Shown piece by piece: positions 63,266 through 63,463 of a DNA stretch of 64,000 bases. The notes beneath the pieces are model-generated. The model ran no database searches. It had not been told where the DNA came from and saw nothing but the letters and a program-made list of their open reading frames with translations. The position numbers and the translations under genes were made by a program. Source of the DNA: Escherichia coli (GTDB taxonomy: Bacteria; Pseudomonadota; Gammaproteobacteria; Enterobacterales; Enterobacteriaceae); NCBI RefSeq assembly GCF_045037415.1, contig NZ_CP173438.1; one strand, given 5' to 3'. The first letter of the stretch is position 1, and each line of letters opens with the position of its first letter.

Positions 63266-63284
63266 GGCGCGCACCTGAACATTT

Positions 63285-63312
63285 ACAGTTGTCTATGGAC
63301 AATCATGGACAA
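63285..63312 (-). promoter_or_regulatory. candidate GntR-family operator (overlapping palindromes)
   Basis: GTTGTCTATGGACAATCATGGACAAC contains TTGTC-N4-GACAA dyads 20-45 bp upstream of the island regulator start. Confidence 0.4.
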
Positions 63313-63463
63313 CTTCAAGCGTATAGTAGGTGAACAGGCGAAAAAGAGGATCGAAGCGTCTCACATTTTAGGGGACCAAATCGTGATCAAAAAAATGTGA
63401 CGTGAGTCGATATTTGGCAGGAGTCTACTGCGCCGTCAGGAAATAACGGCGCGTTGGGAGGTG

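What the first reader, a model, noticed from the sequence alone, without database searches (positions are those of the whole stretch)
63266..63463. Candidate autoregulatory GntR operator and promoter of the island, back-to-back with nikR
Overlapping dyads of the TTGTC-N4-GACAA type sit 20-45 bp upstream of the GntR regulator start, in the 198 bp gap separating it from the nikR stop. The geometry (GT-N-AC core palindromes) is typical of HutC-subfamily GntR operators and predicts repression relieved by a sugar-phosphate effector.
Basis: inference. Interest (0 to 1): 0.35.

Follow-up and report, generated by a model that had tools for sequence, protein, structure and literature searches.

The report
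Operator of an uncharacterised sugar-operon repressor
The repeated TTGTC/GACAA motif just upstream of the GntR-type regulator gene is very probably that regulator's own binding site, which switches a seven-gene sugar-uptake operon of unknown substrate on and off; this is an ordinary kind of bacterial gene switch, not described before for this operon.

Summary
On the minus strand, 22-49 bp upstream of the regulator's ATG (63265), lies AGTTGTCCATGATTGTCCATAGACAACT (63287-63314). It is a 14-bp dyad, TTGTCCA|TAGACAA, plus a third TTGTCCAT unit 10 bp upstream.

In the window alone it is only suggestive: a perfect 5-N4-5 dyad appears in 13% of shuffles of the gap. Comparative data settle it.
- The 28-bp block is nearly invariant upstream of the orthologous regulator in 16 enterobacterial lineages, while flanking non-coding DNA has diverged.
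- It is identical in all 1637 complete E. coli genomes that carry it.
- A matrix built only from non-Escherichia sites scores it 33 bits; the next best hit in 64 kb scores 11.5.
- Where the cluster is split into two transcription units, the same matrix finds an untrained second site upstream of the EIIA gene.
- Firmicute orthologues carry arrays of TTGTACA units spaced 10 or 20 bp apart.

The regulator is HutC-type (GntR HTH plus UTRA domain). The site lies just downstream of a conserved -10-like TACTAT and CRP-like boxes. The likely mechanism is autorepression at the transcription start, with CRP dependence and relief by an unknown, probably phosphorylated, sugar.

Corrections: nikR is co-directional, not back-to-back. 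The GT...AC core is 2 bp wider than the classic HutC consensus. E. coli has no second site before EIIA.

This is a new member of a known kind, of modest interest.

The parts
63287..63314 (-). Composite operator, 28 bp. In gene orientation it reads AGTTGTCCATGATTGTCCATAGACAACT, with three TTGTCYA half-sites (A and B direct, 10 bp apart; B and C inverted).
   Evidence: Searches show the repeats. PWM from other genera scores 33.0 bits, next best in the window 11.5; 24 of 28 columns at 90% or more across 16 enterobacterial lineages; identical in 1637 E. coli genomes.
63289..63302 (.). Core 14-bp dyad TTGTCCA|TAGACAA (units B and C). TTGT and ACAA are separated by 6 bp, the same 4-6-4 layout as the NagR dre site GTGG-TCTAGA-CCAC.
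   Evidence: perfect TTGTC-N4-GACAA; NagR dre geometry, PMC4333415; invariant T14 G16 T17 A20 G23 across 30 sites from three phyla.
63303..63312 (-). Upstream direct-repeat unit A (TTGTCCATGA), exactly 10 bp from unit B.
   Evidence: direct repeat, spacing 10; T5 G6 A10 invariant; 10/20/40-bp phasing of same-strand units in Firmicutes.
63323..63328 (-). Candidate -10 hexamer TACTAT (TAnnAT in orthologues). The predicted transcription start is about 63316/63315, which puts the operator at +3..+30.
   Evidence: T1, A2 and T6 conserved; coordinates. Inference only: the simple sigma-70 scan found no full promoter on this strand, and the -35 is poor.
63350..63365 (-). Proximal CRP-like box TGTGAGACGCTTCGAT (TGTGA-N6-TCGAT), centred at -41.5 from the predicted start.
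   Evidence: AAAnGTGA conserved, 7 of 11 columns at 90% or more; position. CRP consensus is from general knowledge; binding was not tested.
63396..63411 (-). Distal CRP-like box ATCGACTCACGTCACA. It is a perfect TGTGA-N6-TCACA in most other genera; the left half is degenerate in Escherichia.
   Evidence: alignment (GA......TCAC invariant; e.g. L011 and L015 TGTGAnnnnnnTCACA); (with the proximal box it forms the 20-nt inverted repeat 63350-63369/63392-63411).
63385..63389 (-). Conserved TGATC block between the two CRP-like boxes; function unexplained.
   Evidence: 5 of 5 columns at 90% or more; mean majority fraction 0.96.
63266..63286 (-). Nearly invariant leader CTGTAAATGTTCAGGTGCGCGCC, including the Shine-Dalgarno AGGTG (63272-63276).
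   Evidence: 17 of 21 columns at 90% or more.
62519..63265 (-). GntR/HutC-family regulator gene (248 aa), first gene of the operon.
   Evidence: PF00392 plus PF07702; RefSeq annotation; PDB 3HFI is its C-terminal domain, 168 of 170 residues identical.
57665..62494 (-). Presumed regulated genes: EIIA, EIIB, EIIC (galactitol-type PTS), FGGY kinase, HPr-like protein and class II aldolase. They are packed tightly (24-bp gap after the regulator, overlapping stops and starts).
   Evidence: (same gene set linked to the regulator in 50 loci).
63430..63452 (-). Hairpin GCGCCGT-N9-ACGGCGC just after the nikR stop, with no T-run. It may be a weak end of the nikR transcript and is not part of the operator.
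   Evidence: no intrinsic-terminator-like site; conserved within Escherichia only.

Best explanation
The 28-bp block at 63287-63314 is the operator of the HutC-type GntR regulator encoded immediately downstream. The regulator gene is the first gene of a seven-gene unit: regulator, EIIA, EIIB, EIIC of a galactitol-type PTS, FGGY kinase, HPr-like protein and class II aldolase.

The promoter is weak and probably CRP-dependent. It has a -10-like TACTAT at 63323-63328, no usable -35, and CRP-like boxes centred about -41.5 and -87.5. The operator begins 2-3 bp downstream of the predicted start, at +3..+30.

Without inducer, regulator dimers occupy the dyad TTGTCCA|TAGACAA and the phased upstream unit. 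This blocks open-complex formation or promoter escape, so the regulator represses its own synthesis together with the transport and catabolic genes. When the substrate is taken up, a pathway intermediate, most likely the PTS-phosphorylated sugar or the kinase product, binds the UTRA domain. That displaces the DNA-binding domains, as shown for NagR, and the operon is transcribed if cAMP-CRP is present.

Shown here: the motif exists, it is conserved, it is linked exclusively to this regulator's gene cluster, and it is the only such site in the window. Inferred: the transcription start, CRP binding, the direction of regulation, the binding stoichiometry and the effector.
For: Regulator family:
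- GntR HTH plus UTRA domain; homology to NagR/YvoA and DasR.

Conservation of the motif:
- In 16 enterobacterial lineages the operator columns have a mean majority fraction of 0.96 (24 of 28 columns at 90% or more). Neighbouring spacers have 0.57-0.70, and DNA upstream of the distal CRP box has 0.38.
- The 34-nt segment is identical in all 1637 of 5426 complete E. coli genomes that carry it. There is one copy per genome in all but one, although the locus diverges to 96% between lineages.

Specificity:
- A PWM built only from non-Escherichia sites scores 33.0 bits here; the next best hit in 64 kb on both strands is 11.5.
- Across the roughly 640 kb of fetched loci, every hit of 24 bits or more lies directly upstream of the regulator or of the EIIA/EIIB unit.

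Regulon logic:
- The regulator is linked to the same PTS, kinase and aldolase genes in 50 loci from three phyla.
- In the clade 66-72% identical to the query, where the cluster is split, an untrained second site (25-34 bits) sits about 130 bp upstream of EIIA in every locus, each with a 9-of-10 CRP core about 62 bp upstream.

DNA-reading residues:
- The recognition helix VSRGTVKKA and the wing QGKGT are invariant in every orthologue that scores with the operator matrix, and nearly so (VSRGTVRKA; wing GKGT) in the three lactobacilli-type loci L050-L052 that do not.
- The equivalents of NagR Arg48 and Gly69 are conserved. The Arg38 equivalent is Tyr, Phe or Asn (with PMC4333415). This fits a half-site with one G (TTGT) instead of two (GTGG).

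Position:
- The operator lies downstream of the conserved TAnnAT and 22 bp from the ATG, leaving no room for a promoter below it.
Against: - There is no experimental datum: no mapped transcription start, no binding assay, and no literature on this island or regulator was found.
- The simple sigma-70 scan finds no promoter on the minus strand of the gap.
- The core GT-N6-AC is 2 bp wider than the canonical HutC GT-N4-AC.
- The only G of the half-site sits at the position read in NagR by Arg38, which this protein lacks. The docking geometry therefore cannot simply be copied from NagR.
- The distal CRP-like box at -87.5 is out of helical phase with the proximal one under the assumed start.
- The enterobacterial lineages are related, so the conservation counts are not independent events.
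Confidence: 0.85

Rival explanations
1. The block is bound by the cluster's regulator but mediates activation or dual control rather than simple repression.
For: The direction of regulation was not tested. The promoter lacks a recognisable -35, so it needs some activator. A few GntR-family proteins activate (general knowledge).
Against: The site lies downstream of the conserved -10-like hexamer and ends 22 bp before the ATG, a position typical of repressors. CRP-like boxes at activator positions already account for the weak -35. The characterised close relatives NagR and DasR are repressors (the PDB entries name them repressors).
Confidence: 0.07
2. The block is the site of a different DNA-binding protein, such as a global or neighbouring regulator, and merely sits next to the GntR gene.
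For: No binding data exist. Conserved non-coding blocks can belong to other factors, as the CRP-like boxes and the TGATC block in the same gap show.
Against: The motif follows this regulator's gene cluster through different genomic neighbourhoods in Enterobacterales and into Enterococcus, Selenomonas/Centipeda and Anaeromonas, which share no such global regulators. It has the dyad layout of HutC operators. The regulator's DNA-reading residues are invariant wherever the TTGT core is kept. There is only one site in the 64-kb window.
Confidence: 0.04
3. The inverted repeat acts as an RNA hairpin in the 5' leader, controlling translation or stability, or acting as a PTS-type antiterminator target, rather than as a DNA operator.
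For: The gap folds better than shuffles (z = -3.8). The 11-nt arms could form a hairpin 22 nt before the start codon.
Against: There is no covariation. For the outer hairpin, 68.5% of cells pair against a shuffle mean of 69.2%, and 281 of 500 shuffles reach the observed covariation score. For the inner dyad, 146 of 500 do. Arm pairing is lost in the 66-72% clade and in Firmicutes, while half-site sequence and 10-bp phasing are kept. Rfam gives no match. No antiterminator protein is encoded in the cluster.
Confidence: 0.03
4. The dyads are a chance feature of an AT-rich intergenic region.
For: A perfect 5-N4-5 dyad occurs in 13% of shuffles of the gap. Over the window the pattern is no more frequent than expected.
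Against: Near-invariance across genera, a PWM score 21 bits above any other site in the window, and recurrence at a second promoter in split clusters.
Confidence: 0.01

Closest known systems
NagR (YvoA) of Bacillus subtilis and DasR of Streptomyces with their dre operators (GntR/HutC subfamily; PMC4333415, PMC2853113)
   Same: The domain architecture is the same (wHTH plus UTRA); NagR is the closest characterised solved relative (E = 2e-22, 27% identity). Both have a 14-bp dyad with 4-bp recognition segments separated by 6 bp: GTGG-TCTAGA-CCAC in NagR, TTGT-CCATAG-ACAA here. The Arg48 and Gly69 equivalents are conserved. Both control a PTS-linked sugar pathway, and in NagR the effector is a sugar phosphate.
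   Different: The Arg38 equivalent is Tyr, Phe or Asn, and the half-site has a single G. The GT...AC core is 2 bp wider than the classic GT-N-TA-N-AC. There is an extra in-phase direct-repeat unit, which becomes arrays of such units in Firmicutes. The regulator is the first gene of the operon. The substrate and effector are unknown, and the protein reaches no curated NCBIfam equivalog cut-off.
Other HutC-type repressors of PTS or sugar operons, such as TreR of B. subtilis and MngR/FarR and FrlR of E. coli (general knowledge; NCBIfam hits below cut-off)
   Same: A local repressor encoded next to a sugar transport and catabolism cluster, with a TTGT/ACAA-rich operator near the promoter and a phosphorylated or modified sugar as inducer.
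   Different: No equivalog match: TreR model 102.8 bits against a cut-off of 212; PRK09764 model 100 bits against 281. The regulated gene set differs.
E. coli gat operon (galactitol PTS GatABC with GatYZ aldolase) under GatR
   Same: The same PTS family (EIIC-GAT 3e-142; EIIA and EIIB are closest to GatA and GatB) and a class II ketose-bisphosphate aldolase.
   Different: GatR is a DeoR-family repressor, not GntR. The gat operon has a dehydrogenase and no FGGY kinase or private HPr. All transporter hits here fall below the galactitol equivalog cut-offs, so the substrate is probably different.
CRP-dependent catabolic promoters, class II with a site at -41.5 and tandem-site class III (general knowledge)
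   Same: TGTGA-N6-TCnnn boxes at a conserved distance from the -10, a poor -35, and a specific repressor site overlapping the start.
   Different: Both Escherichia boxes match the core at only 7 of 10 positions. The distal box is at -87.5 under the assumed start. Nothing was tested.

Membership tests
GntR superfamily, HutC subfamily (protein) | N-terminal winged-helix GntR DNA-binding domain (PF00392) | tested here: met
   PF00392, residues 12-75, E = 4.1e-16, 58.8 bits (cut-off 27).
GntR superfamily, HutC subfamily (protein) | C-terminal UTRA (chorismate-lyase-like) effector domain (PF07702) | tested here: met
   PF07702, residues 98-236, E = 2.4e-27. PDB 3HFI is this domain (168 of 170 residues identical).
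GntR superfamily, HutC subfamily (protein) | Full-length homology to characterised HutC members (NagR, DasR, PhnF, HutC, TreR) | tested here: met
   YvoA 1.9e-22, DasR 1.6e-13; PhnF, TreR and HutC models hit, all below their equivalog cut-offs, so it is an orthologue of none of them.
HutC-type operator | Dyad-symmetric site with 4-bp recognition segments about 6 bp apart (NagR dre layout) | tested here: met
   TTGT-CCATAG-ACAA at 63289-63302, compared with GTGG-TCTAGA-CCAC.
HutC-type operator | Classic subfamily consensus GT-N-TA-N-AC (GT and AC 4 bp apart; recalled from Rigali et al. 2002) | tested here: not met
   Here the sequence is GTCCATAGAC, i.e. GT-N6-AC, 2 bp wider. The same width is seen in all orthologous sites.
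HutC-type operator | Located at or near the promoter of the regulator's own or adjacent operon and conserved with the regulator | tested here: met
HutC-type operator | Physically bound by the regulator, with binding relieved by an effector | not testable with these tools
   Needs EMSA or footprinting with and without candidate sugar phosphates.
CRP-dependent promoter | A TGTGA-N6-TCACA-like site at a fixed, helically appropriate distance from the transcription start | tested here: inconclusive
   The boxes are conserved. The proximal box is centred at -41.5 only under a predicted start. The Escherichia boxes match 7 of 10 core positions, for which about 0.6 chance matches are expected in 198 bp (own calculation).
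Cis-regulatory RNA leader | Base pairs maintained by compensatory changes | tested here: not met
   no excess over shuffles; no Rfam match.

The most novel reading that the evidence does not exclude
The regulator may not work as a single dimer on a single palindrome, as NagR and DasR do. It may assemble cooperatively on helically phased arrays of TTGTnCA units. There are two direct units plus one inverted unit in E. coli, and up to four or five same-strand units at exact 10- or 20-bp spacing in Enterococcus, Anaeromonas and Selenomonas. That would be a distinct binding mode within the HutC subfamily. It would control a so far undescribed PTS, FGGY-kinase and aldolase pathway with its own HPr, carried by about 30% of E. 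coli, including O157:H7 and ExPEC lineages.
Probability: 0.3. Interest if true: 0.45.

Novelty: new member of a known kind. Interest (0 to 1): 0.25.

Why it matters
The seven-gene cluster between nikR and yhhJ is present in 1634-1637 of 5426 complete E. coli genomes, including O157:H7, NRG 857C and JJ1886. K-12 and B strains carry rhsB at that position instead. The cluster has only generic annotation, and I found no paper on it.

A well-defined operator and a predicted CRP-dependent promoter give a direct experimental handle.
- A reporter fused to 63266-63420 should light up on the unknown substrate, which allows a screen for the sugar.
- The regulator's effector domain is already crystallised (PDB 3HFI), so ligands can be screened against it.

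Beyond that, this is a textbook local-repressor arrangement. A specialist would not be surprised by it.

Tried and rejected
- Literature searches for the island, regulator, PDB code, RefSeq protein accessions and the O-island name returned nothing relevant. One search yielded only the NagR/YvoA papers used for comparison.
- NCBIfam gave no equivalog for the regulator, transporter or kinase, so the substrate could not be assigned. Cluster member names are generic.
- The simple promoter and terminator scan found no sigma-70 promoter on the gene strand and no terminator in the gap. The promoter therefore rests on conservation only.
There is none above 11.5 bits.
- A fourth in-phase unit, ATGTTCA at 63276-63282, was considered. 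It is in 10-bp register with units A and B, but its TGT is not kept in C. amalonaticus or Rahnella, so it is left as uncertain.
- I tried to read the conserved TGATC block as a third CRP half-site, a Cra site or a -35. None fits across genera, so it remains unexplained.
- The RNA-hairpin reading was tested and rejected.
- I did not try to model the protein-DNA complex, because the structure tool cannot include DNA.

Full report
**Setting.** The window is E. coli chromosome. On the minus strand nikR (63865..63464) is followed by a 198-bp gap (63266-63463). After the gap come:
- a 248-aa regulator gene (63265..62519);
- EIIA, EIIB and EIIC of a galactitol-type PTS;
- an FGGY kinase;
- an HPr-like protein;
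- a class II aldolase.

The cluster ends before yhhJ/rbbA. nikR and the regulator gene are co-directional, so 'back-to-back' is imprecise. The regulator has a GntR HTH domain and a UTRA domain, which makes it HutC subfamily. It reaches no curated equivalog cut-off. The PDB entry 3HFI ('putative regulator') is its C-terminal domain, and NagR/YvoA and DasR are the closest characterised solved relatives.

The seven-gene cluster is an accessory island. It is found in 1634 of 5426 complete E. coli genomes, including O157:H7 and NRG 857C. In genomes without the island, homology stops at about window position 63460-63466, the nikR stop; in the one I inspected, the B strain C41(DE3), rhsB follows nikR. 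The whole gap is therefore island DNA.

**The observation.** The + strand at 63287-63314 reads AGTTGTCTATGGACAATCATGGACAACT. In gene orientation this is AGTTGTCCATGATTGTCCATAGACAACT. It contains three features:
- a perfect TTGTC-N4-GACAA at 63289-63302;
- 11-nt arms that are 91% complementary;
- the 8-mer ATGGACAA twice, at 10-bp spacing.

So there are three TTGTCYA units: A and B are direct, and B and C are inverted. They lie 22-49 bp upstream of the ATG.

Taken alone this is weak evidence. In 2000 dinucleotide shuffles of the gap, a perfect 5-N4-5 dyad appears in 259. Arms matching at 10 of 11 or better appear in 11, and a triple 7-mer in 102.

**Comparative evidence.**
- I fetched 52 loci encoding relatives of the regulator. 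In 50 of them the regulator sits in or next to the same PTS, kinase and aldolase set. These span Enterobacterales, Enterococcus, Selenomonas/Centipeda, Anaeromonas and lactobacilli.
- In the clade 84-100% identical to the query (16 non-redundant lineages, different genomic neighbourhoods), the upstream region is unalignable beyond about 150 bp. It then resolves into conserved boxes separated by diverged spacers.
- The operator columns have a mean majority fraction of 0.96, with 24 of 28 columns at 90% or more. Spacers have 0.57-0.70, and DNA further upstream has 0.38.
- Within Escherichia and C. amalonaticus the operator is invariant. The 34-mer is identical in all 1637 E. coli genomes that carry it, with one copy per genome in all but one and no annotated feature under it.
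- A PWM built from 14 unique sites of other genera scores the window site 33.0 bits. The next best hit in 64 kb on both strands is 11.5.
- In the clade 66-72% identical to the query, the cluster is split into two units (EIIA-EIIB-EIIC-kinase and regulator-aldolase-HPr). The same PWM, trained only on regulator-upstream sites, finds a second site of 25-34 bits about 130 bp upstream of EIIA in every locus. No hit of 24 bits or more lies anywhere else in about 640 kb.

This is the standard regulon-inference argument, and it is strong here.

**Features of the motif.** Across 30 sites from three phyla the invariant positions spell TTGnnCAT-nn-TTGTnnATAGA. The recognition helix VSRGTVKKA and the wing QGKGT are invariant in all orthologues that carry the TTGT-type sites. 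Residue 39 varies by clade: Tyr or Phe in one, Asn in the other. Three lactobacilli-type loci (L050-L052) carry Pro at that residue and Arg in the helix, and they fall below the PWM threshold.

The NagR structure paper (PMC4333415) describes the dre site GTGG-TCTAGA-CCAC. There, Arg38 reads G-5, Arg48 reads G-4, and Gly69 of the wing reads G-7. The present dyad TTGT-CCATAG-ACAA has the same 4-6-4 layout. The protein keeps the Arg48 and Gly69 equivalents (R49, G70) but has Tyr at the Arg38 position. This fits a half-site with one G. However, the GT...AC core is 2 bp wider than the classic HutC consensus, and the exact docking cannot be inferred.

In Firmicutes and Negativicutes the same-strand units sit at exact multiples of 10 bp: 26 of 32 spacings are 10, 20 or 40 bp. 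One example is TTGTACATAG-TTGTATATAG-ATGTCTATAG-TTGTG in Anaeromonas. The 10-bp spacing of units A and B in E. coli is the same feature. It hints at binding of more than one dimer on one face of the helix.

**Promoter.** No consensus sigma-70 promoter is found on the gene strand. Conservation nevertheless marks four elements:
- a TAnnAT hexamer (TACTAT, 63323-63328);
- an AAAnGTGA-containing box (TGTGAGACGCTTCGAT, 63350-63365);
- a distal box (63396-63411) that is a perfect TGTGA-N6-TCACA in most genera but ATCGA-N6-TCACA in Escherichia;
- an unexplained TGATC block (63385-63389).

If transcription starts 7 nt after the hexamer (about 63316), the proximal box is centred at -41.5, the -35 is ATCCTC, and the operator spans +3..+30. 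The EIIA-unit promoters of the split clusters show the same plan, with a 9-of-10 CRP core about 62 bp upstream of the operator. I therefore read this as a CRP-dependent promoter whose start region is covered by the operator. All of this is inference from sequence.

**Rivals.**
- An RNA-leader hairpin is rejected. There is no covariation (281 of 500 and 146 of 500 shuffles reach the observed score). Pairing is lost in other clades while the half-site sequence is kept, and Rfam gives no match.
- A different binding protein is unlikely, because the motif follows this regulator's cluster across phyla.
- Activation instead of repression is unlikely, because the site lies below the -10 and 22 bp from the ATG.
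- Chance is excluded.

**Verdict.** Its interpretation is supported as far as computation can go, with four corrections:
- the gene arrangement is tandem, not back-to-back;
- the core is 2 bp wider than the classic consensus;
- there is a phased direct repeat;
- E. coli has no second site before EIIA.

This is a new, previously undescribed member of a familiar class: a local HutC-type repressor with a CRP-dependent sugar-operon promoter. Its main value is practical. It offers a handle for finding the unknown substrate of an accessory PTS, kinase and aldolase operon carried by about 30% of E. coli.

Noticed in passing
window 62519-63028 (C-terminal part of the regulator): PDB entry 3HFI ('Putative regulator', 170 residues) is the UTRA domain of this very protein (168 of 170 residues identical, E = 7e-108). 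No paper mentioning 3HFI was found, so a structure exists without a known function or ligand.
   Followed up: partly
window 63385-63389 (minus strand TGATC), between the two CRP-like boxes: A 5-bp block is conserved at 90% or more in all 16 enterobacterial lineages. It fits no CRP half-site, Cra site or -35 that I could recognise, and is unexplained.
   Followed up: partly
window 63350-63369 and 63392-63411: A 20-nt inverted repeat (75% complementary, 22-nt spacer) is specific to Escherichia and Citrobacter. It is made of the two CRP-like boxes, each with its outer half degenerated to TCGAT/ATCGA. In other genera the distal box is a perfect TGTGA-N6-TCACA.
   Followed up: partly
window 63266-63286: The leader between operator and ATG (ATGTTCAGGTGCGCRCC) is almost invariant across genera whose regulators are only 84-90% identical. 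This is more conservation than a Shine-Dalgarno alone explains. ATGTTCA is in 10-bp register with operator units A and B.
   Followed up: partly
window ~63460-63466 (nikR stop) and L002: The island junction falls exactly at the nikR stop codon. K-12/B-type strains carry the rhsB element there instead, and C. amalonaticus has the island at the same nikR-adjacent position.
   Followed up: partly
window 63430-63452: The hairpin GCGCCGT-N9-ACGGCGC right after nikR has no T-run, and the scan found no intrinsic terminator in the gap. nikR transcripts may read into the GntR operon and meet the operator as a roadblock.
   Followed up: no
window 57665-62494: The gene set is a galactitol-family PTS plus an FGGY kinase, a private HPr and a class II aldolase. 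All transporter and kinase hits are below the NCBIfam equivalog cut-offs. This suggests an undescribed route in which a sugar is phosphorylated at both ends and then cleaved; the substrate is unknown. The kinase start overlaps the EIIC end, and the HPr start overlaps the kinase end, which suggests translational coupling.
   Followed up: partly
window 61666-61696: The ORF finder starts EIIC at a GTG (61696, 462 aa), whereas RefSeq annotates a start 30 nt downstream (1359 nt, 452 aa).
   Followed up: no
L022 (Pantoea sp. BAV 3049) 5870-6000 and 933-959: This locus has lost the operator upstream of the regulator gene (no PWM hit) but keeps one (32.4 bits) upstream of the transporter unit. Gene order also varies among clades: aldolase and HPr are swapped, and the aldolase sits next to the regulator in Firmicutes and in L009/L010.
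   Followed up: no
L050-L052 (Sporolactobacillus, Pediococcus, Lacticaseibacillus) upstream of the regulator: These orthologues have Pro at residue 39 and Arg in the recognition helix (TVRKA). They carry a different upstream pattern (TTGTTCACAGAGGTACCCTGTG ...) that falls below the operator matrix threshold, possibly a shifted specificity.
   Followed up: no
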